This document shows, in pieces, positions 8,544 to 34,774 of a stretch of 35,126 nt of DNA (position 1 is the first letter of the stretch; every line of letters starts with the position of its first letter). This DNA comes from a virus (lineage: Duplodnaviria; Heunggongvirae; Uroviricota; Caudoviricetes). The notes under the pieces were generated by a model that was not told the DNA's origin, did no database searches, and saw only the letters and a list, made by a program, of their open reading frames with translations. Where the stretch lies: the IMG/VR virus record IMGVR_UViG_2619619134_000012; one strand, given 5' to 3'. A program made the position numbers and the translations under genes.

Positions 8544-8742
8544 ATGTCGCAGGATCTTTCAGGATGATACTGCCTGGAAAGTATCCACATATCTTCATTA
8601 ATGCTTAACCATACACAAAATGACATAGACATTTTCCGCAATGATCATCCATAATAGTATCTTCCTCTTGCTGCACTTACTTTTAGCACATAGCTAAGTA
8701 GGTTGTTTTTCTCAAATTTACTGTTCATAAAAACACAAGACA

Positions 8743-9930
8743 ATGAATACATATACACTAACAAGCTACAGCATAATTTACTCTATTTTGATTCCTTTTA
8801 TTATATACTTTGCACTATCTATTCTCCCTGTTTTTCGCAGACCAATAATAGAAGATGGTCCAGGGAAATATATTTATCTTGACCCATTAAGAGGCCTTGC
8901 TGCAGTTTTTGTATTTATACACCACTCAATAATGATCTACAATTTACATACGATAGGTACTTTTGCACCAGACGGGGCATTTTCTTACGCATCACAAGCA
9001 GTAACTGTCACATATTACCACTTCGGTCAATCATCTGTGATGATTTTCTTCATGATTACTGGTTTCTTATTTTTTGGGAAAATATTAAATTTCGAAAAAA
9101 AATTTATAAGTGACGACTTCTTTTTATCCAGAATAAAAAGATTATTCCCCGCAATGTGTTCTTGCTTTATCCTTTATATTATCGCATGTTTTCTTTTATC
9201 TGACACCACAGCTAATAACAATTATTTAGAACATGTGTTATCTTGGTTTTCATTTGGTTTTATAAATCTACCAAAAGTTTCAAGCAACATAGATGGTTGG
9301 ATGTTAGTTGCGGGAGTTTTTTGGACGTTAGTTATTGAATGGAAATTTTATCTCATCACCCCTTTATTGAGTTCATTAATTAACACCAAAATTAAATCAA
9401 TTTGTTTTATTCTAATTGCATCTTGCATAACAATACAGTTATTTATAAATAATCAATTAACTGAGAAAGAGGCATCCATATATCTCTGTTTTATTAGCGG
9501 ATTTGTTGCAGCCATAGCCAACAAGTATTATAGAGAGAAATTATCAATGTTATTTACAGGATTTATATCAGCATCATTAATTACTTCCATATACGTATAT
9601 TGTTTTTATAATACCATTGGCTCTTATAACTTCCAAGTTACTGGTGCATTATTTTTGCTGTTTATATCAATAGTATCAGGGAATTCTTTTTTTGGAATCC
9701 TAAAAATTAAAGCTCTGCACTGCGCAGGAAAATGTAGTTATAGTGTATATATAATGCATGCTTTAATATTGAATATTATTTTCTTTGTTATGGCAAAACA
9801 ATATGATTATTACGTTTGTTTTTTAGTGGCTTCTGTAACTCTAGGAGTGCTAACCATTCTTAACTACGTGTTTGTAGAAAGAAAATTCATATCAGGAAAG
9901 CAAGAGAAATTAAAGCAAGCAACTATATAA
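8743..9930 (+). CDS. Acyltransferase family 3 integral membrane protein (OafA/Oac-like O-acetyltransferase)
   Basis: 395-aa polytopic membrane protein with acyltransferase-3 signatures (YLDPLRGLAAVFVFIHH; FFMITGFLFFGK; WTLVIEWKFY); strongly AT-rich; opposite strand to the flanking tail genes; occupies the P2 Z/fun position between G and FI. Confidence 0.8.
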   Translation: MNTYTLTSYSIIYSILIPFIIYFALSILPVFRRPIIEDGPGKYIYLDPLRGLAAVFVFIHHSIMIYNLHTIGTFAPDGAFSYASQAVTVTYYHFGQSSVMIFFMITGFLFFGKILNFEKKFISDDFFLSRIKRLFPAMCSCFILYIIACFLLSDTTANNNYLEHVLSWFSFGFINLPKVSSNIDGWMLVAGVFWTLVIEWKFYLITPLLSSLINTKIKSICFILIASCITIQLFINNQLTEKEASIYLCFISGFVAAIANKYYREKLSMLFTGFISASLITSIYVYCFYNTIGSYNFQVTGALFLLFISIVSGNSFFGILKIKALHCAGKCSYSVYIMHALILNIIFFVMAKQYDYYVCFLVASVTLGVLTILNYVFVERKFISGKQEKLKQATI

Positions 9931-22349: not shown

Positions 22350-23074
22350 TGCACTCAACCCCAACTAACCTCATGACCACCGCCAGCCTGCCTGTAGATC
22401 GCCCTTTCTTTGCTTACCAGCATGAATGGAACAGCGGCGCACGCAGCAGAAACCGTGTGCTTACAAAAATGCGTCAGGCTGGCGCAGATTTCTTTTTCGC
22501 CTACGAAGCCCTGAACGATGCACTGCATACCGGACGCAACCAGATTTTTCTGGGCTGCACCCCGGCATCCGCCCTGACAGTCAAAACCTATATGTCAGCC
22601 TTTATAGATCAGGCTGCAGCCTGGACACACCTTGGAAAAATAAAATCAGGCAAAGCGCATCTGGAACTACCAAACGGTGCAGTCATTTATTTTATCGGGC
22701 CGGAAAGCCTCGCCGCCGCGCTCCATGGAAACGTCTACGTGTCAGAGTATGCCTGGGCGGACTCCCCGAAAAATATGATTGCGCTCGCCAAAAGCCTGTC
22801 CATGCACGCGCGCTATCACGCTACCTACTACACCACCCCAAGCCCCAGCCCGGAAGCATGGCGGGAATACAAGAAGCTGATTGCCCGCAACAGCACAACC
22901 AGCATGACCTTTACCGCTGATGACGCTGCAGCATCCGGGGCAACGCTCGCAACCGGAGCCGCGCTCTTTGATGATGAATGGCTGAATGACATGAAAAAAG
23001 AATTATCAGCAGCGGACTGGAGAATGTTGTTTATGTGCGAATGGCCCCAGTTTGACAAGGAGCAGATGGCATGA
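22349..23074 (+). CDS. Terminase-ATPase-domain-only paralogue (truncated, motif-degenerate terminase large-subunit-like protein)
   Basis: 241-aa ORF overlapping the P stop (TGATG) and the Q start (ATGA); aligns by eye with the ATPase core of the adjacent P protein (KMRQAGADFFFAYEALNDALHTGRNQIFL vs KSRQIGATYFFAREALIDAITTGRNQIFL; LFMCEW vs LLMCEF) but lacks the N-terminal and nuclease regions. Confidence 0.7.
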   Translation: MHSTPTNLMTTASLPVDRPFFAYQHEWNSGARSRNRVLTKMRQAGADFFFAYEALNDALHTGRNQIFLGCTPASALTVKTYMSAFIDQAAAWTHLGKIKSGKAHLELPNGAVIYFIGPESLAAALHGNVYVSEYAWADSPKNMIALAKSLSMHARYHATYYTTPSPSPEAWREYKKLIARNSTTSMTFTADDAAASGATLATGAALFDDEWLNDMKKELSAADWRMLFMCEWPQFDKEQMA

Positions 23075-24123
23075 GCAAACGCAAAAACCGGAATAACCGC
23101 GCAGCGGTAGATCACAAAGCTAAACCGCACGGTGATGCGGTGGCTGAGGCATTCAGCTTTGGCGACCCGGTGCCGGTGCTGGACCGGCGCGAGCTTCTGG
23201 ACTATGTGGAATGCGTGCAGATGGACCGCTGGTATGAGCCGCCGGTCAGCTTTGACGGGCTGGCGCGAACCTACCGCGCCGCCGTGCACCATAGCTCCCC
23301 GATTGCGGTTAAACGTGACATTCTCAGCAGTACGTACATCCCGCACCGCCTGCTCAGCCAGCAGGCTTTTGCCCGTTTCGTCCAGGATTATCTGGTGTTC
23401 GGTAACGCCTATCTGGAAAAGCGCACCAACCGGCTCGGCGGCGTTCTCTCACTGGAGCCAGCACTGGCGAAGTACACACGCCGTGGCGTGGACCTCGACA
23501 CCTACTGGTTTGTGCAGTACGGCCTGACCACGCAGCCCTATGATTTTACACAGGGCAACATTTTTCACCTGATGGAGCCGGATATTAACCAGGAGATTTA
23601 CGGGCTGCCCGGCTATCTCTCCGCCATTCCGTCAACCTTGCTCAACGAGTCCGCCACGCTGTTCCGCCGGAAGTATTACATCAACGGCAGCCACGCGGGT
23701 TTCATCATGTACATGACCGACGCAGCACAGAACCAGGAGGATGTGAACAATATCCGCCAGGCAATGAAAAGCGCCAAAGGACCTGGTAACTTCCGTAACC
23801 TGTTTATGTATTCACCCAACGGTAAAAAGGACGGCATCCAGATCATCCCGTTATCGGAGGTTGCTGCAAAGGATGAGTTTCTGAACATCAAGAACGTCAG
23901 CCGCGATGACATGATGGCAGCGCACCGCGTACCGCCACAGATGATGGGTATTATTCCCAACAATACCGGCGGCTTTGGTGATGTGGAAAAGGCCAGCCGT
24001 GTCTTTGTTCGCAACGAGCTGATGCCGCTGCAGAAGCGACTGCAGGAGCTTAACGACTGGCTGGGCGAAGAAGTGATCCGCTTTGAGCCTTACGACCTGG
24101 GTTTAAAAAGCAAGCGCAACTAA
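23071..24123 (+). CDS. Q: Portal protein
   Basis: 350-aa ORF with clear P2 gpQ similarity (FGDPVPVLDRRELLDYVEC...WYEPPVSFDGLA...AVHHSSPI...); AAGGAG ribosome-binding site. Confidence 0.9.
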   Translation: MSKRKNRNNRAAVDHKAKPHGDAVAEAFSFGDPVPVLDRRELLDYVECVQMDRWYEPPVSFDGLARTYRAAVHHSSPIAVKRDILSSTYIPHRLLSQQAFARFVQDYLVFGNAYLEKRTNRLGGVLSLEPALAKYTRRGVDLDTYWFVQYGLTTQPYDFTQGNIFHLMEPDINQEIYGLPGYLSAIPSTLLNESATLFRRKYYINGSHAGFIMYMTDAAQNQEDVNNIRQAMKSAKGPGNFRNLFMYSPNGKKDGIQIIPLSEVAAKDEFLNIKNVSRDDMMAAHRVPPQMMGIIPNNTGGFGDVEKASRVFVRNELMPLQKRLQELNDWLGEEVIRFEPYDLGLKSKRN

Positions 24124-24160
24124 CCTACTTCAGCACCATTTCAAAGAGATGCCCATTCAC

Positions 24161-24197
24161 AGCGCCCCGGCAGCATTCTGCGGGGCGCTTCTTTTTT
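24161..24197 (+). terminator. Rho-independent terminator after Q
   Basis: AGCGCCCCG ... CGGGGCGCT stem followed by TCTTTTTT. Confidence 0.55.
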
Positions 24198-24284
24198 GCT
24201 GCTGCTCCCTTTCCCTTAGAGATTGAATCCGCCAGCGTGCCTGATATTGTGCCGGATTTTCACCATTTCACCCCATTGCGCGCG

Positions 24285-24303
24285 CTCGTATCCCCGCCAC
24301 GCC
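24285..24303. other. Candidate cos (cohesive end) site
   Basis: Minus strand reads GGCGTGGCGGGGATACGAG, resembling the P2/186 cohesive-end sequences as I recall them (GGCG[A/T]GGCGGGGAAAGCA...); next to Q where cos lies in P2. Confidence 0.4.
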
Positions 24304-24345
24304 TGCCCGCTTTATGTAGTGGTTTTCATGCACCTGCATGAGACA

Positions 24346-24374
24346 GGCAAAAGCCCGCCAGTTCTGGCGGGCCT
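24346..24374 (-). terminator. Candidate terminator of the SOS cassette transcript
   Basis: Perfect GCCCGCCAG / CTGGCGGGC inverted repeat followed on the minus strand by TTTTG. Confidence 0.4.
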
Positions 24375-24438
24375 CAGCATAAACGATCCTTAAACGATCA
24401 TGCGTTTTCATGCGGCATAGTCATGCACTACGACGAAA

Positions 24439-24729
24439 TCAGTCAAACAGAGAATAATTTGCATCAAATTCATGACTTGTGGCTTCGACTTTCGTAATAA
24501 CTATCAAGTAACCAAGTCCATCAGATAAAGACACCGGATACTCCAGCTCAAGCCAGAAACAGTCATCATAAGTTCTTCCCATCCAGTATCCGCCGCCGCA
24601 CTCTTTTGGGCGTTGAAAGAAAACCCACTGACCTGGAATGATTGTTTCCAGCGTTTGACCGCGATATACAATTTGATACTTGTTGTCTTTAGACCCCATA
24701 GCTAACGCCTCGCATAGCTCGTTGTTCAA
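24439..24729 (-). CDS. Hypothetical protein (96 aa), last gene of the SOS cassette
   Basis: ORF in a lower-GC stretch 43 nt downstream of the DinI-like gene on the same strand; no family recognised. Confidence 0.5.
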   Translation of the reverse strand: MNNELCEALAMGSKDNKYQIVYRGQTLETIIPGQWVFFQRPKECGGGYWMGRTYDDCFWLELEYPVSLSDGLGYLIVITKVEATSHEFDANYSLFD

Positions 24730-24772
24730 CCTTGCGAGCGCCAGAACTACGTTCTGCCTCTCACAACGTTAT

Positions 24773-25006
24773 CTAATGTAACCAGCTGTCGTCCTCCCAG
24801 ACCTGCTGCATAATTTCCATCACTCGCTTTTTGTCTTCATCCAGTTTTAACCCGCTCAGTTCAACACCATTGGCACTGCCCTTACGGATACGAATTGCTG
24901 TTTTGGGATACAGAGGGCGCAAATTACGGTAAAGCTCGGATTCAAGGGCTTCCAGTGTGGCCTGGCTAATCTTCTGCTCTTTATCGATCATTATTTCAAT
25001 GCGCAT
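24773..25006 (-). CDS. DinI-family protein
   Basis: 77 aa (MRIEIMIDKEQKISQATLEALESELYRNLRPLYPKTAIRIRKGSANGVEL...KKRVMEIMQQVWEDDSW) with the DinI pattern MRIE...K...AL..EL.R...P...R...K.R..EI.Q..WE...W; own AGGGAA ribosome-binding site. Confidence 0.8.
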   Translation of the reverse strand: MRIEIMIDKEQKISQATLEALESELYRNLRPLYPKTAIRIRKGSANGVELSGLKLDEDKKRVMEIMQQVWEDDSWLH

Positions 25007-25017
25007 ACAGATTCCCT

Positions 25018-25206
25018 TTAACTGGTAACGTCCATTGACCGGCTGTATTCATGGCTGCGAATTTTCGCCATCAACTCGTCTGTCAGTTCGGACACCCACT
25101 GGATAGCCAGCCGCTTTTCTTCGTCGCTGCACTCACTAGCCGCTACAAGCTTGATAAAAAAATCAATACGCTGGAGCTTCAATGACTCCAAAAGATAGTC
25201 CTGCAT
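25018..25206 (-). CDS. Hypothetical small protein (62 aa), first gene downstream of the LexA box; possible Tum-like antirepressor component
   Basis: Start chosen at ATG 25206 (MQDYLLESLKLQRIDFFIKL...) because of a strong AGGAGG site 6 nt upstream; the longer track ORF (to 25383) would run through the promoter and LexA box. Confidence 0.5.
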   Translation of the reverse strand: MQDYLLESLKLQRIDFFIKLVAASECSDEEKRLAIQWVSELTDELMAKIRSHEYSRSMDVTS

Positions 25207-25254
25207 CTTCCCTCCTATCATTACACGGATACACAAGCACTGTATATATACCCA

Positions 25255-25270
25255 CTGTTTATATAAACAG
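25255..25270. promoter_or_regulatory. LexA box (SOS operator)
   Basis: CTGTTTATATAAACAG is a perfect CTGT-N8-ACAG palindrome with an AT-rich spacer, about 50 nt upstream of the 62-aa gene; a second, imperfect half-box (CTGTATATATACCCAC) starts at 25240. Confidence 0.6.
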
Positions 25271-25364
25271 TATAGTAGGAAAGAAAAAATGTAAAACTCT
25301 TTTTTGTCAGTTAATTGGATGTACTGACGCCAGTCAATAAAGCACGAAATGTTAAACAGCATCC

Positions 25365-27764
25365 TTAGTACCATTGACGCCATTTGTCATCTTCCTGCAG
25401 CCTCTGGTTACGGTAAAAAATACGTAAACCGGCACCGGATGGAATGCTGCCGCCACGCAGAAGCAAATCAATCTCAGATGCACTACCTTCAAACCCTCTG
25501 GCAGTCAGTTCTGCCTCAAGCTGCAGGCGCTGCTGCTCCGAAATACTCTGTATGTATGCTTTTTTCCGCTTCGGTTTTACCAGTCTCAACCTGGCTGTCA
25601 GCTCCCGCCGTTCCTTCTGGCCCATGTTGTGGAGATATTCCTGCAGCTCCTTCTCATCCATGGTTTTAATATCGGGTAAATCACCCCCTGATTTGTTCAG
25701 ATTTTCAACAGGGGGACAGTTATTGCCACGAGTCCAAGGGGCGCAAGCGCCCTGGTCGGCTGCCGCCTCCTGAACGTCAACGGCCTTACGAACCTTTTTC
25801 CACTTCATCGCGTGCGTGCAAATCTTGCCCTCTGCAATCGGGGACCAGATGCCATAGATACGGATACCGTGATCGCCGTAGGCGCTCGGTTCGTCGTTAA
25901 GCTCATAAGCAGTGCGGACAAGGTGATGTTTGCGGGGAACCAGTACACCGCCCTGCTTCATGATGTAGGTGGCAAAGCAACCCGCATCTGCAGCCGCCAG
26001 TACCGCATCCAGACGTGGATTATCCAGTACAGGCGCACCCGCTTTGCGTTCGCCCTGTACTCTCGCCGCCTGACCAGCCAGCAAGCGCAGCTCGCGGTAT
26101 GCCTGGCGCCCCGGAATACCAAAGAAACGAAATTGCTGGACACGGTGCAGTGACGCCCAGGCGCTGACATGCTCGGCGCTGTCACGCAGTGATCTGCCGG
26201 TTTCTTTGCTGATTTCTTTAGCCAGCCCGCGCCCGTCGATGTTCTTACTGATGTATTTGGCGATGTAGCTTGTCGGTGTGCCCTTGCGCGGGTTGATTAG
26301 CTCGGACTTGAAGCGCGGTCCGGTATTGGTGCCCAGCTCCTCGCGGTCTTCACGGATGGCAAACTTTCGCAGCAGCGCGGTGATGGAACGACGGTCTTTT
26401 TTGCGCATAAAGCACAGAAGATGCCAGTGCACAGTGCCGTCATGGTGCGGCTCTGCAACGCGGACGCCGTACCAGCGCAGCCCGGCTTTGTGCATGGCCT
26501 TGCGGAAAGCGGCGAATGTATCAACCAGATAGTCACTGCTCTGCCGGACCGTGGCGCTGGTCCATTTCGGATTAGGTCTGCCGTTGTTGAGGGTTGCGTG
26601 GAAGCGTGACGGGCAGGTGATGGTATAGAACACGGCGCAGTCTCCGCGCATTTCCGCGATCAGCTCCAGCCCTTTAACACAGGCCATCATTTCATTACGG
26701 CGGTGCGCCGGGTTGCTGTTGCTGGCGTTCACCACATCTTCCATATCCAGCGTGTCACCGTCTTCGTTGACCAGTTCATGCGAGCGGAAGAACTCCAGCG
26801 ATTTGCGGCGCTGCTCGCGTTTGTGGATCACGGCTTCATAGCTGACATACGGGGACGCTTTCTTGTTGACCAGGCAGACGGCGCGCAGCTGCCCCCCCCG
26901 CCACTCGCAGCGCATCTGCCACAATTTGCGATACCACCAGTCCGCGCACAGCATGCGAGCCAGCGACGGTGGGATCAGTTCATAAGGCACCGACTTGCGG
27001 CGGCGCTTTTTGCGGCGCAACTGCTCAAAGGCAGGCGGGATGACCTCAAGGCGCATGGCTTCTGCTGCAACCCTTTCCCATGCCTGGCGGATTTCTTCTG
27101 GTTTAACATCGTCACTGACAAACAGATCACTGCAGGCCGTATCAAGACACATGCTCATATGTGCCGCAACCAGCGTGGAAAGGCGCTTTACCTGCTCCTG
27201 ATTCATTTCAGGCAGTACCAGCAACCCCTCCAGCCCGTCCTGGATCGCCATGAACCGGAAAGACGCAGACACCTGGCTGTCACGCACGCGCTCCAGCCGC
27301 TCCAGACAAGGCCTGATTGTTTCGCGCAGATAGCGGGAATAAGCTTTAGCCCTGCCCAGGCTATGGAAGTATTTAATCCGCTCCAGCAAAGGCTTGCTGA
27401 TATGGGCAGGCATGGCGCTAACATCGGCAATAATCACCAAATCGGGATTAACGCGCTGCTGTTCGCGGGCCATTTTGGCATGGCTAATCAGCCGATCCTG
27501 CTCCATTTCACGCTGGACAGGATCGCGGGATTCATTAAAGAAATAGAGTTCCCAAACCTCATCACTCAGCGCCTCACGGCGCAGATGCTCCTGCTCGTTA
27601 TCCGCAGCATACAGAGTGATGAGGTTTGAAAGCGCAGACTCCGGCGCAACGTCCGCCGGTTCCAGATACGGATTAACCGCTTTTTTTGTGGTATTCCATG
27701 GAAAGGCTGCGGCGGCCTCATTCGAGCCGCCGGTCGCCGCCATTTCGAAGCTGGTCAACTTCAC
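25365..27764 (-). CDS. A: Replication initiation protein A (rolling-circle nickase)
   Basis: 799-aa ORF with P2 gpA-type motifs ([22 protein letters not shown]; [12 protein letters not shown]); exact start uncertain. Confidence 0.85.
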
Positions 27765-27816: not shown

Positions 27817-28761
27817 TTAAGGCGTTTCCGTAGGTTCGAATTCGTCCCACTCTGGAGGCAGCCCCATTAACCAAAGGCTCAAGGCCGGATTTAACTGGCC
27901 TCCATTTTCCATCTGTGCATTTGAGCCAGTCAGCATCTTTCCAGAAGCCGTTAACCGGACCGGGCCTGCAATCTGTGCCACCACATCCAGACGATCTGTC
28001 GATATTTTCCCTTTGCGAATCCTCCCCCCAGGATCCCCCCCCCCTTGTGGTCGCTGGCTGTTGGCGTGGGCCAGCCAGCCATTTTTACCTGTTGCGCAAG
28101 GCTGCTGCCGGACATGCCCTCGGTAATCCCTCGCCCTCCCCGCCTGCTGTCGCTGGCACTCGGAGTTGTCCAGCCCGAAAGCTGCGCAGCTGTCTGCAAG
28201 TTCAATCCTCCCTGACGGCCCGCGTTGCTGGGATGCTTCCAGGCATTCGCTGTTGGTGTGGACCACCCAATAAGTTCTGTCCCGGATGTTCGGGGCACCG
28301 ACGCTCGCAGCCGGAAACGCACTCGCCCCGAAGGCATAACCCAAGGCTTCCACGTCAGTCTGTACAAGGTCGATCCAGTCATTTGCGTCAGCACTTGCAG
28401 ATTGCTCGCCAAAGACAACGACAGGGCGACGCTGCCCGACCAACCAATGCATGGCGGGCCATAAGTGCCGCTCGTCAGCAAACCCTTTTCCTTTGCCTGC
28501 CGCGCTGAAAGGCTGGCATGGGCAGGAACCTGTCCAGACTTCTCTGCTGTCTTCCCAGCCCACACGGCGCAGGGCATATGACCAAATGCCAACCCCTGCA
28601 AAGAAATGGACCTGAGCAAATCCTCGTAAATCATCGGGTCTGACATCTTCAATACTCCTTTCATCTACAACACCCGGCATAATGCGACCGGCAGCCATGT
28701 GTACGCGCAGCCGCGCAGCTGCAAACGGGTCTATCTCGTTGTAATAAGCCCACGCACTCAC
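27817..28761 (-). CDS. DNA (cytosine-5) methyltransferase-like protein; coding frame ambiguous (possible frameshift or phase-variable gene)
   Basis: Frame starting at GTG 28761 carries C5-methyltransferase motifs I ([12 protein letters not shown]), IV ([15 protein letters not shown]), VIII ([13 protein letters not shown]) and a motif IX-like C-terminus ([19 protein letters not shown]); an overlapping second frame and a G10 tract complicate the call. Confidence 0.45.
27951..28664 (-). other. Alternative-frame ORF (237 aa) fully overlapping the methyltransferase-like gene, with three tandem GW[STP]TP[TS]A repeats
   Basis: Open across about 700 nt in a second frame; tandem repeat units start near 28279, 28175 and 28077 (period about 100 nt); passes through the G10 tract. 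Confidence 0.3.
28035..28044. repeat. Homopolymer tract C10 (G10 on the coding strand) inside the methyltransferase-like gene
   Basis: Plus strand ...GGATCCCCCCCCCCTTGTGG...; a second C6 run lies at 28024-28029. Confidence 0.9.
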
Positions 28762-29615
28762 GCCTGCACCTCATACTTAACGCAGCAATCAGGACCGCCA
28801 GCAGGATCAAAACCAATCCAGTGATGAGGTTTAGAAGTAGCGATGATTTCCACGGCGGACTTACCATCACCGGCAGCCACACCCATGCTGCGCTTTGCCG
28901 TCAGCCGATAGCGGGAGAAATTGCGATAAAGAGAACGGGTCAAAGATGTATCACTGTTGGACACAATGACCGGATGACCTTCTGATGAACGACGCTCAAG
29001 AATAGACGCCAGATGATACTGATCATCCTCAGTAAATCCGGCGGTGTGATAACCGGTAAACGTTCCGTCATATGGCGGATCGCAATAAACCACATCACCA
29101 GTCTTCAGCAGTGCCAGTGTTTCCTCATAGCTGGCACAGATAAACGTTGCACGTTGTGCCTTTTCTGCAAAAGCGCGTATTTCGTTTTCGGGGAAGTACG
29201 GATTTTTATAATTACCGTAAGGAACATTAAAGTGACCACTCAAGTTATAGCGGCACAGTCCGCGATAACAATGGCGATTAAGATAAATAAACATGGCTGC
29301 GCGGCAATCCACAGGCCAATCACGTCCATGGTTAAATTCTTTTCGAATATCGTAGTAATCCTCTGCCGATTTATTTTTAGCAAATAAATCCTTGCCAATT
29401 GAGATTAATAATTCAGGTCCGCTTTTAATGGCATTGTAAAGACTTATCAGATCTGGATTAATATCCGCGACAAGATAATGAGGATAGTCTGTCTCCATCA
29501 TCACAGCGCACGAACCCGCGAAAGGCTCAACCAGTCGCGGGCCTGCTGGAAGGTGTTTTTTCAGTTCTGGCATTATGGCGGTTTTATTACCCGCCCATTT
29601 CAGGATGGTGCTCAT
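28758..29615 (-). CDS. DNA adenine (N6) methyltransferase, Dam/D12 class
   Basis: Start at ATG 29615 ([18 protein letters not shown]...); motifs KWAGNK, FAGSCAV and DPPY; stop overlaps the start of the cytosine methyltransferase-like gene. Confidence 0.85.
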
Positions 29616-29839
29616 ACAGCCCCCCCTACGTAATGTTTGCCTTTCAGCTCTGCGATTTCCTGACAGGTGACGCAACACTGCACGCCCGGAATAGCGCGGC
29701 GGCGAGCTGGCGGGATCGGTGCATCGCAATCAATGCAGAGCACACGGGAAACGCCCGGTGTTCTGTTGCGGGCGGTGTGGATGTGGCGCTGACGTTCTTC
29801 TTCAACGCGCTGCTGTACAAGGTCCATTGAATCAGCCAT
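29612..29839 (-). CDS. TraR/DksA-family C4 zinc-finger protein
   Basis: 75 aa with CIDCDAPIP...CCVTCQ, a Cys4 arrangement typical of phage TraR-like proteins. Confidence 0.7.
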   Translation of the reverse strand: MADSMDLVQQRVEEERQRHIHTARNRTPGVSRVLCIDCDAPIPPARRRAIPGVQCCVTCQEIAELKGKHYVGGAV

Positions 29840-31556: not shown

Positions 31557-32189
31557 ATGATACAGGTGAAAGCTGGCGAGAATACAGGGGGTAGAGAGGC
31601 TATCCATAGGTTGATGGCGGCCTATGATTTCAAGTCCAGACAGCAGCTATGCGATCACCTAGGCGCATCTAAAAGCACCATGGCAAACAGATACTTAAGG
31701 GACAGCTTTCCTGCAGAATGGGTGATCCAATGCGCTCTTGAAACAGGCGTTTCGTTACTCTGGCTAACCACAGGGCAAGGCGAACCAGGAGCAAAAATTG
31801 ATGATAAAAAAAGTATCAATATCGTGAACTCCAGCAAGGTTAAACCTCTTTCTGAACTTATATCGCCAGAGATCGACAAGGCTACCCTTATGGGAGGTTC
31901 GTTGGTTGAAGCCGGGAAGGCCATCATTGATAGCAGCCTGCTTCCCCCTGACTCAAACGAGCTGCTTCTCGTAAATACCACTGGCGATTCATATTTAGTT
32001 GACCGTAACCAGACACCACCAGTGAATGGGATGTGGTTGGTCGATATCGACGGGATAAAAAGCATTGTTAAGCTAACTCGCCTTCCGGGAAACAGATTAG
32101 TTGTGCATCAAGATGACTCTTCGTTTGAGTGCAGCCTGGATGATATCGAGGTTGTTGGCCGCGCATTGAAAATTATTAAGAGCCTTTGA
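31557..32189 (+). CDS. cI: CI-like immunity repressor (phage 186 CI family)
   Basis: 210-aa ORF with helix-turn-helix region AAYDFKSRQQLCDHLGASKSTMANRYLRD and CALETGVSLLWLTTGQGE; immediately upstream of int as in the 186 cI-int operon. Confidence 0.75.
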   Translation: MIQVKAGENTGGREAIHRLMAAYDFKSRQQLCDHLGASKSTMANRYLRDSFPAEWVIQCALETGVSLLWLTTGQGEPGAKIDDKKSINIVNSSKVKPLSELISPEIDKATLMGGSLVEAGKAIIDSSLLPPDSNELLLVNTTGDSYLVDRNQTPPVNGMWLVDIDGIKSIVKLTRLPGNRLVVHQDDSSFECSLDDIEVVGRALKIIKSL

Positions 32190-32190
32190 T

Positions 32191-33216
32191 ATGACCATCA
32201 GAAAACAGCCGAACGGAAAATGGTTGTGCGAGTGTTACCCGAACGGGCGTGACGGTAAGCGCGTGCGCAAGCAATTTGCGACAAAGGGCGAGGCTGTAGC
32301 ATTCGAAAACTTCACCATGGATGAAGTGAACAAAAAGCCGTGGCTGGGTGAAAAGGAAGATCGGCGGCGTTTGTCAGAATTGATTGAGCAGTGGCATTCA
32401 CTTTATGGGCAGACGCTGGCTGACCCCAAACGCCTTATGGCAAAACTCAGCATTATTTGTAATGGCCTTGGTGATCCCATCGCCTCAGAGTTAACCGCAG
32501 GCGATTTTACGAAATACCGGGAAGCACGTCTAAAAGGTGAAGTAAAAAATGAAGATGGCGTGCTTATGTCGCCAGTTAAACCCCGCACGGTAAACCTTGA
32601 GCAACGCAACCTATCCTCTGTTTTTGGCACGCTGAAAAAGCTGGGCCATTGGTCAGCCCCAAACCCGCTAGCCGGTCTGCCAACATTCAAAATTGCCGAA
32701 GGTGAATTGGCGTTCCTAGCCCCGGAAGAAATTAAACGCCTGCTGGATTCCTGTGCTGAATCTCAAAGCCCCAGCTTACTGATGATTGCAAAAGTATGCC
32801 TAGCCACTGGTGCACGATGGAGTGAAGCAGAAAACCTACAAGGACACCAGCTGTCGAAATATCGCATCACCTACACCAAGACCAAAGGCAAGAAAAACAG
32901 AACCGTGCCAATATCACAAGATCTGTATGACGAACTACCCAAGAACAGAGGGAAGTTATTCACGCCATGTAGAAAAGCCTTTGAGCGCGCAGTGAAGCGG
33001 GCCGGAATCGATCTGCCAGAGGGTCAATGTACTCATGTGCTGCGCCATACATTCGCCAGCCATTTTATGATGAACGGCGGAAACATACTGGTGCTGCGCG
33101 ATATTCTAGGCCATGCCGATATAAAAATGACAATGGTATATGCTCACTTTGCACCCGATCACCTCGAAGATGCAGTGACAAAAAACCCGCTTCACAATCT
33201 CAACTGGAAGCGCTAA
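32191..33216 (+). CDS. int: Tyrosine integrase of the prophage
   Basis: 341 aa with the C-terminal catalytic region HVLRHTFASHFMMNGGNILVLRDILGHADIKMTMVYAH; adjacent to the right att repeat. Confidence 0.9.
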   Translation: MTIRKQPNGKWLCECYPNGRDGKRVRKQFATKGEAVAFENFTMDEVNKKPWLGEKEDRRRLSELIEQWHSLYGQTLADPKRLMAKLSIICNGLGDPIASELTAGDFTKYREARLKGEVKNEDGVLMSPVKPRTVNLEQRNLSSVFGTLKKLGHWSAPNPLAGLPTFKIAEGELAFLAPEEIKRLLDSCAESQSPSLLMIAKVCLATGARWSEAENLQGHQLSKYRITYTKTKGKKNRTVPISQDLYDELPKNRGKLFTPCRKAFERAVKRAGIDLPEGQCTHVLRHTFASHFMMNGGNILVLRDILGHADIKMTMVYAHFAPDHLEDAVTKNPLHNLNWKR

Positions 33217-33379: not shown

Positions 33380-33412
33380 TTTTTGATATATTGAAGTTCA
33401 GTGAAGTCTATC

Positions 33413-33447
33413 AAGCCCGCATGGAACCAGCCTTGCGGGCTTTTTTA
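33413..33447 (+). terminator. Rho-independent terminator after the displaced ssrA 3' fragment (probably the ancestral ssrA terminator)
   Basis: GCCCGCA ... TGCGGGC stem followed by TTTTTT. Confidence 0.55.
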
Positions 33448-33544
33448 CGTCTATAGTAGTCTACCGAGAATTGCTAGAATCTACTCGTTATGGCACCCTT
33501 TTTGGGACCCAACACAAAGGGTCCAAAACATGAGGGTCCCAAAC

Positions 33545-34774
33545 ATGGCAAAAATCGCTAAGAAGCTCACTGACACTGAAATCAAAAGCACCAAACCTGC
33601 CGAGAAAGAGGTTAACCTTTTTGACGGCGATGGTTTGCTCCTGCGAATCGCCCCCTTAGCGAAGGGAGGAAAGAAAAATTGGTATTTCAGATATGCAGTG
33701 CCTGTGACCAAAAAGCGAACTAAGGTGAGCTTAGGAACCTATCCTCACCTTACACTTGCGAAGGCACGAGCTTTACGTGATGAGTACTTGTCGTTGCTTG
33801 CAAATGGTATAGACCCACAAGTTCATAACACCCACAAAGCCAATGCCCTTAAGGATGCAACGGAACATACATTTCAAGCAGTAGCCAAGAAGTGGCTTGA
33901 TGAGAAAGTCAAAACGTCAGGCATCTCCCAGGATCATGCTAACGACATCTGGCGAAGCCTAGAGAGAAATATCTTTCCAACGTTGGGTGATACCCCCATT
34001 AAGGAGATTCGCCCTAAAATGCTTAAACAGCATTTAGACCCCATAGAAAAACGAGGTGTCCTTGAAACACTTCGCCGCGTCATATCCCGCCTGAATGAAA
34101 TTTTCCGCTATGCAGCAACAGAAGAACTCATAGAATTCAATCCGGCTGACAACCTGGGGCAACGGTTCAGCAAGCCAAAAAAACAGAATATGCCAGCATT
34201 ACCCCCTTCCGAACTCCCCCGCTTCCTGGTTGCTCTAAACAATGCTTCTATCCGTTTAGAAACAAGGCTACTGATTGAGTGGCAACTTCTCACATGGGTT
34301 CGCCCTGGTGAAGCTGTTCGCACAAGATGGTCAGATATTGATATAGAAACCAGCATGTGGAACATCCCGGCGGAGTTTATGAAAATGAAGAAGCCTCACA
34401 AAGTTCCACTGAGCAAAGAATCTTTGCGAGTCTTGGATTCAATGAAAGCCATCAGCGGGCATAGAGAGTGGGTTTTTCCCAGTATCAAAGCTCCACTCAA
34501 TCACATGCATGAACAAACAGCTAATGCGGCTATAATCCGTATGGGCTTCGGAGGTGAGCTTGTAGCTCATGGTATGCGATCAATCGCTAGAACGGCGGCT
34601 GAGGAGTGTGGCAAGTTTAGAACTGATGTCTTAGAAGCCGCCCTTGCCCACTCGAAAAAAGATGAAATAATTGCAGCCTACAATCGTGCAGAGTATCTCA
34701 CAGAACGTGTGGTTCTCATGCAATGGTGGAGTGACTATGTTTCGTCTCAAAAATACAAAGTTATTGCCGCATAA
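33545..34774 (+). CDS. P4/CP4-57-family tyrosine integrase of a second, tandem integrative element
   Basis: Start at MAKIAKKLTDTEIKSTKPAEKEVNLFDGDGLLLRIAPL..., clearly related to E. coli CP4-57 IntA (LTDTEIK, DGDGL, DIWRSLER, HGMRSIA, LAH); sits directly 3' of the ssrA-derived repeat. Confidence 0.85.
   Translation: MAKIAKKLTDTEIKSTKPAEKEVNLFDGDGLLLRIAPLAKGGKKNWYFRYAVPVTKKRTKVSLGTYPHLTLAKARALRDEYLSLLANGIDPQVHNTHKANALKDATEHTFQAVAKKWLDEKVKTSGISQDHANDIWRSLERNIFPTLGDTPIKEIRPKMLKQHLDPIEKRGVLETLRRVISRLNEIFRYAATEELIEFNPADNLGQRFSKPKKQNMPALPPSELPRFLVALNNASIRLETRLLIEWQLLTWVRPGEAVRTRWSDIDIETSMWNIPAEFMKMKKPHKVPLSKESLRVLDSMKAISGHREWVFPSIKAPLNHMHEQTANAAIIRMGFGGELVAHGMRSIARTAAEECGKFRTDVLEAALAHSKKDEIIAAYNRAEYLTERVVLMQWWSDYVSSQKYKVIAA

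What the first reader, a model, noticed from the sequence alone, without database searches (positions are those of the whole stretch)
24439..25290. SOS-controlled three-gene cassette (LexA box, small protein, DinI-like protein, unknown gene) at the cos-proximal hotspot
A perfect LexA box lies about 50 nt upstream of a 62-aa gene with a strong ribosome-binding site, followed by a separately initiated DinI-family gene and a 96-aa gene of unknown function, then a hairpin and the cos-like site. In phage 186 this position holds the LexA-repressed tum antirepressor operon, so, together with the 186-type cI/apl/cII switch, the prophage is predicted to be SOS-inducible. The split into a small protein plus a separate DinI-like protein, and the extra third gene, do not match anything I can name.
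Basis: partly seen in the sequence, partly recalled or inferred. Interest (0 to 1): 0.6.

Follow-up and report, generated by a model that had tools for sequence, protein, structure and literature searches.

The report
SOS-controlled prophage induction operon (split tum)
This is the known DNA-damage switch of 186/Fels-2-type P2-family prophages, a LexA-repressed operon with a small antirepressor and a DinI-like protein; the only new part is its third gene, from an uncharacterised phage protein family that is under LexA control wherever it occurs.

Summary
On the minus strand, between the replicase gene A and cos, lie a promoter with a high-scoring LexA box, a 62-aa gene, a 77-aa DinI-family gene, a third gene, a terminator and cos.

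Two corrections:
- There are two LexA boxes whose cores overlap by 1 bp, the arrangement described for colicin promoters.
- The third gene is 86 aa (ATG at 24699), not 96 aa.

PSP3 annotates tumA/tumB, and Fels-2 has the same split. In the E. coli HS prophage DuoHS, deleting the small gene (90% identical to this one) abolished mitomycin C induction. The 62-aa protein is a remote homologue of the N-terminal half of 186 Tum.

The new result concerns the third gene (phrog_2100; no Pfam, PADLOC or fold match). It is a mobile cargo gene found in P2-like, P22-like, lambdoid and SSU5-type phages. All 25 stand-alone copies examined carry their own LexA box just upstream of the start codon. Copies inside tum operons lack their own box. 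Its function is unknown. A conserved acidic C-terminal tail suggests it docks on a host replication or repair protein.

Verdict: an ordinary cassette with one interesting passenger.

The parts
25290..25295 (-). -35 hexamer TTTACA of the tum promoter (equivalent of 186 p95)
   Evidence: Lies 17 nt upstream of TACTGT. TTTACA is conserved in Fels-2, HS and MLG42. The layout matches the p95 annotation of 186.
25267..25272 (-). -10 hexamer TACTGT, inside LexA box 1. An alternative is TATACT at 25269-25274 with a 15-nt spacer.
   Evidence: By analogy with 186, where the annotated -10 of p95 is the TACTGT of the LexA box. Coordinates. The simple promoter scan does not call it, because this -10 matches the consensus at only 3 of 6 positions.
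25253..25272 (-). LexA box 1, TACTGTTTATATAAACAGTG (core 25255-25270)
   Evidence: Exact CTGT-N8-ACAG match. Scores 24.5-26.3 bits and is the best site in the window.
25238..25257 (-). LexA box 2, CAGTGGGTATATATACAGTG (core GTG-N10-CAG at 25240-25255). It shares one G with the core of box 1 and covers the predicted transcription start.
   Evidence: Scores 15.8-18.2 bits and is the second-best site in the window. The +15-nt second box is conserved in 8 relatives, including Fels-2, HS and MLG42.
25018..25206 (-). tumA-type gene, 62 aa: the predicted antirepressor of CI. AGGAGG ribosome-binding site at 25211-25216.
   Evidence: phrog_698, E=1.5e-36. 90% identical to the E. coli HS gene whose deletion blocks induction. 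The N-terminal 70 aa of 186 Tum hit phrog_698 at E=5.9e-6. hhalign E=1.2e-4. AF2 model is a helical hairpin, pLDDT 91.
24773..25006 (-). tumB / DinI-family gene, 77 aa
   Evidence: Pfam DinI 84.4 bits. 40% identical to 186 Tum residues 71-145. Matches E. coli DinI structure 1GHH at E=2.5e-8.
24728..24770 (-). Conserved intergenic hairpin (about 15 bp, no U-run) between the DinI-like gene and orf86
   Evidence: -29.2 kcal/mol for the 76-nt intergenic stretch, z=-3.5. 12 of 24 predicted pairs keep pairing through changes on both sides, across 13 loci.
24702..24730 (-). Near-invariant non-coding block GTTGAACAACGAG-N4-GCGAGGCGTTAG. It ends 2 nt before the orf86 ATG and includes the orf86 Shine-Dalgarno GAGG. 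Its role is otherwise unexplained.
   Evidence: Alignment of 13 loci. Also present in MLG42, which lacks orf86, and after gene A in L016.
24439..24699 (-). orf86 (phrog_2100), 86 aa: an SOS-linked accessory gene of unknown function
   Evidence: phrog_2100, E=4.9e-41 over residues 11-94 of the 96-aa ORF. Family members are 85-86 aa. A clean indel of coding-sequence size, window 24702..24431, relative to MLG42. All 25 stand-alone copies have their own LexA box.
24349..24375 (-). Intrinsic terminator of the operon (GC-rich hairpin plus UUUU)
   Evidence: -27 kcal/mol, z=-4.2. Coordinates.
24285..24303 (-). cos cohesive-end sequence GGCGTGGCGGGGATACGAG. Repeated (C/T)GCATGA motifs lie upstream at 24326-24427.
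   Evidence: The first 13 of 19 nt are identical to the annotated cos of 186, and the flank is conserved.
31557..32189 (+). 186-type CI repressor: the inferred target of the 62-aa protein
   Evidence: Pfam Phage_CI_repr E=5.8e-31 and Phage_CI_C E=1.1e-28.

Best explanation
This is the SOS induction operon of a 186/Fels-2-type prophage of the P2 family, probably in a Citrobacter-like host.

1. In undamaged cells, two LexA dimers occupy two boxes whose cores overlap by 1 bp. The boxes cover the -10 hexamer and the transcription start of a promoter (TTTACA, 17 nt, TACTGT). This presumably keeps the operon fully off.
2. After DNA damage, RecA-stimulated self-cleavage of LexA frees the promoter.
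3. The first product is a 62-aa helical-hairpin protein equivalent to PSP3 TumA and the N-terminal half of 186 Tum. It binds the 186-type CI repressor and prevents operator binding, which switches the prophage to lytic growth.
4. The second product is a DinI-family protein, equivalent to TumB and the C-terminal half of 186 Tum. It probably modulates RecA filaments, and therefore the strength or duration of the SOS signal.
5. The third gene, orf86, is cargo inserted precisely between a conserved hairpin block and the cos-proximal repeats. It probably receives SOS control by read-through, because the hairpin has no U-run. It most likely acts on a conserved host target during the SOS response.

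Basis of each step:
- Shown by sequence here: the boxes, the promoter layout, the family assignments and the synteny.
- Shown by published experiment in a 90%-identical orthologue: the small gene and cleavable LexA are both required for induction.
- Inferred: LexA occupancy of both boxes, binding of the 62-aa protein to CI, co-transcription of orf86, and the role of orf86.
For: LexA boxes
- They are the two top-scoring sites in the window.
- Every related locus has a box of at least 21 bits upstream of its tumA gene. Eight relatives conserve the second box 15 nt downstream.

Synteny and family assignment
- Same synteny as the annotated 186 p95-tum operon, PSP3 tumA/tumB and Fels-2.
- DinI by Pfam, by BLASTP to 186 Tum residues 71-145, and by match to structure 1GHH.
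- Remote homology of the 62-aa protein to the N-terminal half of Tum. The protein hits phrog_698, phrog_8554 and phrog_1993 at 1.5e-36, 2.3e-8 and 1.8e-3. Tum residues 1-70 hit the same three at 5.9e-6, 3.4e-12 and 1.5e-23. hhalign gives E=1.2e-4 and is collinear.

Published experiments
- The DuoHS delta-tum deletion removes exactly the 62-aa ORF, and it and lexA(Ind-) both block mitomycin C induction.
- The upstream PSP3 gene is the antirepressor (PMC3121763).
- Overlapping SOS boxes at colicin genes bind two LexA dimers and give no detectable basal expression (PMC2994835).

Context
- A 186-type CI, CII, Fil and integrase are present.

orf86 under SOS control
- The scan finds no sigma-70-like promoter on the minus strand between the DinI-like gene and orf86.
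- 25 of 25 stand-alone homologues carry their own LexA box. All 14 distinct loci where the gene sits inside a tum operon lack one.
Against: - No experiment has been done on this particular element.
- BLASTP finds no alignment between the 62-aa protein and 186 Tum. Homology rests on profiles, with hhalign probability only 55%.
- Box 2 begins GTG rather than CTG and scores only 15.8 bits once colicin boxes are left out of the training set.
- The -10 hexamer is weak, and the simple scan does not call the promoter.
- CI here is only 43% identical to DuoHS CI, so antirepressor-repressor pairing is extrapolated.
- A stable 15-bp hairpin lies between the DinI-like gene and orf86. It could stop or process the transcript, as the annotated partial terminator t95a does in 186.
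- In Gifsy prophages, deleting the dinI homologues had no measurable effect on induction (PMC3121763). The role of the DinI-like protein is therefore uncertain.
Confidence: 0.85

Rival explanations
1. Only the first two genes form the SOS operon. The conserved hairpin after the DinI-like gene ends or processes the transcript. In this prophage, orf86 would then be a separately or constitutively expressed lysogenic-conversion gene, or a silent one.
For: - A stable hairpin supported by compensatory changes lies between the DinI-like gene and orf86.
- 186 has an annotated partial terminator, t95a, at the equivalent place.
- orf86 is a precise cargo insertion with lower GC than its neighbours: 0.43 against 0.47-0.56.
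Against: - The hairpin is not followed by a U-run.
- No minus-strand promoter is detected between 24700 and 24775.
- Across the family, the gene has its own LexA box in every stand-alone context and lacks one only when it sits behind a LexA-controlled tumA. That pattern is what reliance on read-through predicts.
Confidence: 0.2
2. orf86 is itself a LexA-controlled antirepressor, of the kind seen in Gifsy prophages or N15. It would act on a repressor of this or a co-resident prophage, making the cassette a double antirepressor module.
For: - It is a small, LexA-controlled protein in temperate phages, like Tum, GfoA/GftA and AntC (PMC3121763).
- In L016 it occupies the slot after gene A, with its own LexA box and with no tumA or DinI-like gene.
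Against: - Its core, WVFFQRPKECGGGYWLGRTY, is nearly invariant. The family occurs in phages with unrelated immunity systems: P2-like, P22-like, lambdoid and SSU5 phage-plasmids. That points to a conserved host target rather than to fast-evolving phage repressors.
- It co-occurs with a functional-type tumA gene in most P2-like loci.
Confidence: 0.1
3. The DinI-like protein, not the 62-aa protein, is the inducer. The small ORF would be a leader peptide or not a real gene.
For: The DinI-like half is the only part of 186 Tum that pairwise search detects.
Against: - The DuoHS deletion removes only the small ORF, leaves the DinI-like gene intact, and abolishes induction.
- The PSP3 antirepressor activity maps to the upstream gene.
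- The small protein is conserved at 85-100% identity across many genera, has a strong ribosome-binding site, and folds confidently.
- Deleting dinI in Gifsy prophages had no effect on induction.
Confidence: 0.03

Closest known systems
Phage 186 SOS operon (p95-tum-orf97)
   Same: - Same position between replicase gene A and cos.
- A LexA box overlaps the -10 hexamer TACTGT.
- An antirepressor module is followed by a DinI-like module. 186 also has an internal GTG start that produces the DinI-like part on its own.
- A further cargo gene follows before the terminator and cos.
- 186-type CI, Apl and CII switch.
   Different: - In 186 the two modules are fused into one 146-aa Tum. Here they are separate genes, 11 nt apart.
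- 186 has one LexA box; this element has two overlapping boxes.
- The antirepressor module is only a remote homologue, detectable by profiles and not by BLASTP.
- The cargo gene is unrelated: orf97 belongs to phrog_3403, orf86 to phrog_2100.
PSP3 tumA/tumB, the Fels-2 STM2728/DinI pair, and E. coli HS prophage DuoHS tum
   Same: - Split arrangement: a small antirepressor gene followed by a separately translated DinI-family gene.
- Fels-2 and DuoHS share the same small-protein family (87-90% identical) and the same dual overlapping LexA boxes.
- DuoHS provides the experimental proof of function.
   Different: - PSP3 TumA belongs to the other subfamily, phrog_1993, and has a single LexA box.
- Fels-2 and DuoHS carry different cargo after the DinI-like gene (phrog_1353 plus larger genes). 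They also lack the conserved hairpin block.
- CI here is only 43% identical to DuoHS CI, with most of the identity in the N-terminal DNA-binding domain.
Colicin-operon dual overlapping SOS boxes
   Same: - Two 16-bp LexA cores share one base pair, and the second core begins GTG.
- The window reads CTGTTTATATAAACAGTGGGTATATATACAG. I recall ColE1 as CTGTATATAAAACCAGTGGTTATATGTACAG. That sequence is from memory, not from a tool.
- The second box of Fels-2 reads CAGTGGTTATATGTACAGTA, identical to the ColE1 second box as I recalled it.
- In colicin operons this layout binds two LexA dimers and prevents untimely expression of a lethal function (PMC2994835).
   Different: - Here it controls prophage induction rather than a bacteriocin.
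- Cooperative binding and delayed induction are untested here.
Gifsy-prophage LexA-controlled operons (dinI - antirepressor gfoA/gftA - irsA)
   Same: A LexA-controlled prophage operon outside the immunity region. It combines a DinI homologue, a small antirepressor and a third small gene of unknown role (PMC3121763).
   Different: - The gene order is reversed.
- These are lambdoid phages.
- I did not compare the window's proteins directly with GfoA, GftA or IrsA, so any relationship is untested. orf86 has no Pfam match.

Membership tests
186 Tum / PSP3 TumA antirepressor (the 62-aa gene) | Encoded between replicase gene A and cos, as the first gene behind a LexA-box promoter, and followed by a DinI-like coding region | tested here: met
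186 Tum / PSP3 TumA antirepressor (the 62-aa gene) | Sequence homology to the N-terminal half of Tum or to TumA | tested here: met
   Met at profile level only. Tum residues 1-70 hit phrog_698 at E=5.9e-6. Both proteins hit phrog_8554 (2.3e-8 and 3.4e-12) and phrog_1993. hhalign gives E=1.2e-4, probability 55%. BLASTP finds nothing.
186 Tum / PSP3 TumA antirepressor (the 62-aa gene) | Required for SOS induction of the prophage | not testable with these tools
   Shown in the literature for the 90%-identical DuoHS orthologue. Not shown for this element.
186 Tum / PSP3 TumA antirepressor (the 62-aa gene) | Binds CI and reversibly prevents operator binding | not testable with these tools
   Known for 186 Tum (cited in PMC3121763). 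A 186-type CI is present in the window.
DinI family (PF06183) | Pfam score above the gathering threshold, with a full-length match | tested here: met
   84.4 bits against a cut-off of 24.2, covering profile positions 2-63 of 63. Matches 1GHH at E=2.5e-8.
LexA operator (E. coli-type SOS box) | CTG-N10-CAG palindrome with an AT-rich spacer that overlaps a promoter | tested here: met
   Box 1 matches exactly and scores 24.5-26.3 bits. It overlaps the -10 hexamer.
LexA operator (E. coli-type SOS box) | Bound by LexA; the transcript is induced by DNA damage | not testable with these tools
   Needs a gel-shift or footprint assay and transcript mapping.
Colicin-type dual overlapping SOS boxes | A second box offset by 15 bp that shares one base pair of the 16-bp core | tested here: met
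   Box 2 scores 15.8-18.2 bits and is conserved at +15 in 8 relatives. Cooperative LexA binding was not tested.
Known anti-phage defence systems of the P2 gpA-gpQ hotspot | Match to a PADLOC defence model | tested here: not met
   No PADLOC hit for any of the three proteins at E<=1. The locus is nevertheless the published hotspot (PMC9122126).
Beta-clamp-binding (QL[SD]LF) or SSB C-terminal-tip (DFDDDIPF) mimic (tail of orf86) | C-terminal peptide that matches the motif and is conserved across the family | tested here: inconclusive
   Family tails read FD[DAP][ND][YF]SLF, FDDDFxL, Q[LIM]PLF and ELPF, and about half end in a free Phe. The window copy ends SLFD. The two reference motifs are from my own knowledge. 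No binding test is possible with these tools.

The most novel reading that the evidence does not exclude
orf86 (phrog_2100) would define an unrecognised class of SOS effector carried by temperate phages.

It is a small, conserved beta-sheet-plus-helix protein. It is kept under direct LexA control in at least five unrelated lineages of temperate elements.

Its disordered acidic tail (FDDD-aromatic-x-L-F, with variants ending IPLF or ELPF) resembles the C-terminal tip of SSB, or alternatively a beta-clamp-binding motif. Under this reading the tail docks on a host replication or repair hub during DNA damage. That could redirect or block host replication, restart or nuclease activities in favour of the induced phage.
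Probability: 0.2. Interest if true: 0.75.

Novelty: new member of a known kind. Interest (0 to 1): 0.4.

Why it matters
The cassette itself adds little. It is one more copy of the tum-type SOS switch. A match to this 1.2-kb region is found in 1,281 of 5,426 complete E. coli genomes.

Two points could be useful:

- **Dual LexA operator.** The Fels-2/DuoHS subgroup uses a colicin-style double LexA operator, where 186 and PSP3 have a single box. This predicts tighter repression and later firing of induction. It could explain differences in spontaneous induction among P2-family prophages.
- **orf86.** This is a clean case of comparative genomics pointing to regulation before function.
  - The LexA box is an island of conservation in otherwise unrelated upstream DNA: 1.43 against 0.24 bits per column.
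  - All 25 stand-alone copies have the box. It is missing only where the gene sits behind a LexA-controlled tumA.
  - The family is widespread and easy to clone, and it has no annotation. It is a straightforward target for finding a new phage-host interaction tied to DNA damage.

Tried and rejected
Searches that gave nothing useful
- BLASTP of the 62-aa protein against 186 Tum found no alignment, so homology had to be established with profiles.
- Pfam gave nothing meaningful for the 62-aa protein and nothing for orf86. PADLOC gave nothing for any of the three proteins.
- The Protein Data Bank sequence search found nothing for the 62-aa protein or orf86.
- The 62-aa model gave only generic helical-hairpin matches.
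- A profile search of 1.84 billion representative proteins extended the orf86 family to 112 small proteins. None of the ten distant members I scanned had a Pfam domain.
- Rfam found nothing credible in 24100-25450.
- Bunny et al. 2002 (PMC151935), the primary paper on Fels-2 tum, is not in the held library. I could not check whether the double box has already been described.
- No paper mentions phrog_2100.

Ideas considered and rejected
- The 47-aa ORF at 24268-24411 is probably not a gene. It spans the terminator and cos, and its conservation is explained at the DNA level.
- The TTG start that gives 96 aa is rejected. Family members are 85-86 aa, and the upstream extension is interrupted by a stop codon in L014.
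- The LexA-like sites at 8719-8738 and 9656-9675 are probably chance. They lie in AT-rich DNA and score 14.3-16.1 bits, at or just above the 95th percentile of the best site per shuffled window (14.3 bits).
Full report
**What is in the sequence**

The finding lies on the minus strand, between the P2-type replicase gene A (25365-27764, Pfam Phage_GPA, E=4e-130) and the portal gene Q (23071-24123, plus strand). Reading 5' to 3' on the minus strand:

- -35 hexamer TTTACA at 25290-25295.
- A 17-nt spacer, then -10 hexamer TACTGT at 25267-25272.
- LexA box 1 at 25253-25272 and LexA box 2 at 25238-25257.
- AGGAGG ribosome-binding site at 25211-25216.
- A 62-aa gene at 25018-25206.
- An 11-nt gap, then a 77-aa gene at 24773-25006.
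- A structured intergenic region at 24702-24770.
- An 86-aa gene at 24439-24699.
- Repeated (C/T)GCATGA motifs.
- A GC-rich hairpin followed by UUUU at 24349-24375.
- The cos sequence at 24285-24303.

**Is it more than chance?**

The pattern CTGT-N8-ACAG occurs twice in the window, against 0.29 expected. The second occurrence, at 24898-24913 inside the DinI-like gene, has a GC-rich spacer and scores only 8.9 bits.

I scored the window with a position weight matrix built from E. coli LexA boxes that I recalled from the literature. The list comes from my own knowledge, not from a tool.

| Site | 17 chromosomal boxes | Plus two colicin boxes |
|---|---|---|
| Box 1, 25253-25272 | 24.5 bits | 26.3 bits |
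| Box 2, 25238-25257 | 15.8 bits | 18.2 bits |

In the run these are the two best sites in all 35 kb. In shuffled windows from the same run, the best site has median 11.1 and 95th percentile 14.3 bits.

The two 16-bp cores, CTGTTTATATAAACAG and GTGGGTATATATACAG, share a single G.

The terminator hairpin folds at -27 kcal/mol, z=-4.2. The cos 19-mer GGCGTGGCGGGGATACGAG matches the annotated cos of 186, GGCGTGGCGGGGAAAGCAT, over its first 13 nt, and the upstream flank is conserved.

There are two LexA boxes, and the third gene is 86 aa.

**The first two genes are a known split tum**

In phage 186, the interval between gene A and cos holds promoter p95, a LexA site over its -10 hexamer (TACTGT), tum, the partial terminator t95a, orf97 and the terminator t95b.

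The window's 77-aa protein is a DinI-family protein.
- Pfam DinI, 84.4 bits.
- 40% identical to 186 Tum residues 71-145.
- E=2.5e-8 to E. coli DinI, structure 1GHH.

The 62-aa protein gives no BLASTP alignment with Tum. Profile searches do connect them:

| PHROG family | 62-aa protein | 186 Tum residues 1-70 |
|---|---|---|
| phrog_698 | 1.5e-36 | 5.9e-6 (collinear, residues 6-44) |
| phrog_8554 | 2.3e-8 | 3.4e-12 |
| phrog_1993 | 1.8e-3 | 1.5e-23 |

A profile-profile comparison of the two subfamilies gives E=1.2e-4 over 42 collinear columns, with a probability of only 55%.

The AF2 model of the 62-aa protein is a two-helix hairpin, pLDDT 91. It has no informative structural neighbour.

The split is documented in the literature and in database records.
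- PSP3 annotates tumA ("similar to 5' end 186 tum; UV induction of prophage") and tumB ("similar to dinI and 3' end of 186 tum").
- Fels-2 has the same pair.
- Lemire et al. 2011 state that Fels-2 and PSP3 have tum split by a stop codon. [quoted passage not shown] 2002 (PMC3121763).

The strongest evidence is experimental. In the E. coli HS prophage DuoHS, both lexA(Ind-) and delta-tum abolish mitomycin C-induced lysis and virion foci (PMC12055606).
- The deletion primer NHR28 reads ATAGGAGGAAAGATGTGAGGTGACTTTTATGCGCATTG (PMC11195241).
- It fuses the ATG of the 62-aa ORF to its TGA, and leaves the downstream DinI-like gene (ATGCGCATTG...) intact (HS sequence).
- That protein is 90% identical to the window's.

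Even in 186, the DinI-like part is annotated as separately translated from an internal GTG. The fused and split forms are therefore close variants of one design.

The cassette is common. 1,281 of 5,426 complete E. coli genomes have a match to this 1.2-kb region. The small protein occurs at 85-100% identity in Salmonella, Citrobacter, Enterobacter, Raoultella, Leclercia, Kosakonia and Tatumella, always labelled hypothetical.

**The target and the switch**

The window has a 186-type immunity region:
- CI at 31557-32189 (Phage_CI_repr and Phage_CI_C domains).
- An 80-aa divergent ORF in the apl position.
- CII (CP76 family).
- Fil.
- An integrase directly after CI.

CI is only 43% identical to DuoHS CI. 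Residues 11-75, the DNA-binding domain, are highly similar, while the C-terminal domain has diverged. The antirepressor is 90% conserved between the two phages. My inference, untested, is that it contacts the N-terminal domain.

**The double operator**

Among relatives, the second box 15 nt downstream is conserved in the window, L013, L014, L015, L030, L010, Fels-2, DuoHS and MLG42. All of these have a phrog_698-type small protein and a TTTACA -35 hexamer. 186, PSP3 and loci with PSP3-type TumA have a single box.

The layout is the one described for colicin operons. There, two overlapping SOS boxes bind two LexA dimers and prevent untimely expression of a lethal function, with no detectable basal expression (PMC2994835).

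The similarity to the ColE1 sequence is from my memory. The second box of Fels-2 is identical to the ColE1 second box as I recall it.

By analogy, I predict very tight repression and late firing of the antirepressor. I could not check whether this was already noted for Fels-2, because Bunny et al. 2002 is not held.

**The third gene**

orf86 belongs to phrog_2100 (E=4.9e-41). It has no Pfam, PADLOC or Protein Data Bank sequence match. Family members are 85-86 aa, with a near-invariant core WVFFQRPKECGGGYWLGRTY.

Relative to Yersinia phage MLG42, orf86 is a clean insertion the size of its coding sequence (window 24702..24431). It lies in the gpA-gpQ interval, the published variable hotspot of P2-like phages (PMC9122126).

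The gene is not confined to P2-like phages. It occurs in:
- the end of a lambdoid prophage in Serratia fonticola;
- another prophage in Erwinia rhapontici;
- positions just upstream of terminase small-subunit genes, or after tail-fibre assembly genes;
- P22-like Salmonella phages such as SE1, and the phage-plasmid SSU5.

The key result is its link to LexA.
- In all 25 stand-alone copies examined, a LexA box of 18.9-27.4 bits lies just upstream of the start codon. The gap is 8-26 nt in 24 of them. For L044 the tool measured 56 nt from a partial protein match, and the sequence shows the ATG 23 nt after the box.
- The 25 copies are 21 from a scan of one genome per species, 2 from contig look-ups and 2 phage records.
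- Their 23 distinct upstream regions are otherwise unrelated. Information content is 0.24 bits per column in the 45 nt upstream, against 1.43 in the box, and CTG and CAG are invariant.
- The 14 distinct loci where the gene sits inside a tum operon (13 scan loci and the window; the Salmonella arrangement L010-L012 is the same) have no box of their own. Each has a box of at least 21 bits upstream of tumA.
- Variant architectures exist. In L022, L033 and L037, tumA is followed directly by orf86 with no DinI-like gene. In L016, orf86 follows gene A directly, with its own box and no tumA.
- Two further loci were uninformative: a contig end and a truncated copy.

SOS control therefore appears to be a selected property of this gene family. 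In the window it is most simply supplied by read-through from the tum promoter.

**What orf86 might do**

Nothing tested here fixes the function. The invariant core across phages with unrelated immunity systems argues for a conserved host target rather than a phage repressor.

The tail is the best lead.
- Close relatives end in FD[DAP][ND][YF]SLF.
- More divergent members have FDDDFxL, Q[LIM]PLF or ELPF.
- About half of the family ends in a free Phe.

These tails resemble the SSB C-terminal tip (DFDDDIPF) and, in part, the beta-clamp-binding motif (QL[SD]LF). Both reference motifs come from my own knowledge.

The window copy ends SLFD, so its Phe is not terminal. The occasional replacement of the DinI-like gene by orf86 in the same slot would also fit a RecA-directed role.

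My working hypothesis is an SOS-induced protein that docks on a host replication or repair hub. I give it about 20%.

**The intergenic hairpin**

Between the DinI-like gene and orf86 lies a stem of about 15 bp. Twelve of the 24 predicted pairs keep pairing through changes on both sides, across 13 loci.

It is followed by a nearly invariant block, GTTGAACAACGAG-N4-GCGAGGCGTTAG.

The block is part of the phage backbone. MLG42 has it without orf86, and L016 has it directly after gene A. Fels-2 and DuoHS lack it.

There is no U-run, so it is not a canonical terminator. No Rfam family matches. It may be an RNA processing or stabilising element, or a weak attenuator comparable to t95a of 186. This is unexplained, and it is the main uncertainty about co-transcription of orf86.

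**Verdict**

The cassette is a new member of a well-known kind, the tumA/tumB-type SOS induction operon, and not something unnameable.

Two details deserve follow-up: the colicin-like double LexA operator, and the obligately LexA-linked orf86 family.

Noticed in passing
window 24702-24770 (minus strand): A hairpin of about 15 bp, supported by compensatory changes, followed by a nearly invariant non-coding block GTTGAACAACGAG-N4-GCGAGGCGTTAG. It belongs to the phage backbone: it is present in MLG42 without orf86 and after gene A in L016, and absent in Fels-2 and DuoHS. It has no U-run and no Rfam match. Function unexplained.
   Followed up: partly
window 31557-32189 compared with L005 28701-29270: CI is only 43% identical to the CI of E. 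coli HS DuoHS, although the antirepressors are 90% identical. The identity is concentrated in the N-terminal DNA-binding domain. This suggests that the antirepressor contacts that domain.
   Followed up: partly
window 8743-9930 (plus strand), with upstream 8719-8738: An AT-rich Acyl_transf_3 membrane acyltransferase is inserted next to the tail sheath gene. It is probably an O-antigen-modifying conversion gene. A LexA-like half-match, TACTGTTCATAAAAACACAA (14.3 bits, at the 95th percentile of shuffles), lies just upstream and is probably chance. A second LexA-like site at 9656-9675 (16.1 bits) lies inside the AT-rich coding sequence.
   Followed up: partly
window 33401-34774 (plus strand): A second integrase, of the P4-like type with an Arm-DNA-bind_3 domain, lies immediately beyond the prophage's own integrase (32191-33216). 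This suggests a second integrative element in tandem at the same site.
   Followed up: no
window 27817-29729 (minus strand): Two DNA methyltransferase-like genes lie just upstream of gene A. One is a Dam-type D12-class N6-adenine methylase (28758-29729). The other is an ORF with a partial C-5 cytosine methylase match (27817-28761).
   Followed up: no
window 24326-24427 (minus strand): Four copies of (C/T)GCATGA lie between orf86 and cos, flanking the terminator. They are conserved in MLG42, Fels-2 and DuoHS and are possibly terminase-binding repeats. The 47-aa ORF at 24268-24411 that spans them is probably not a gene.
   Followed up: partly
L016 3369-3758; L022, L033 and L037 3200-3758: Variant architectures in other P2-like prophages. 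In L016, orf86 sits directly after gene A with its own LexA box and no tumA or DinI-like gene. In L022, L033 and L037, tumA is followed directly by orf86 with no DinI-like gene.
   Followed up: partly
L013 (Citrobacter sp. FP75, NZ_JAFDOE010000002.1): The closest relative found. It is about 98% identical across gene A to cos, and its tumA, DinI-like and orf86 proteins are 100% identical. The portal region is only 85% identical, so the packaging module is mosaic.
   Followed up: no
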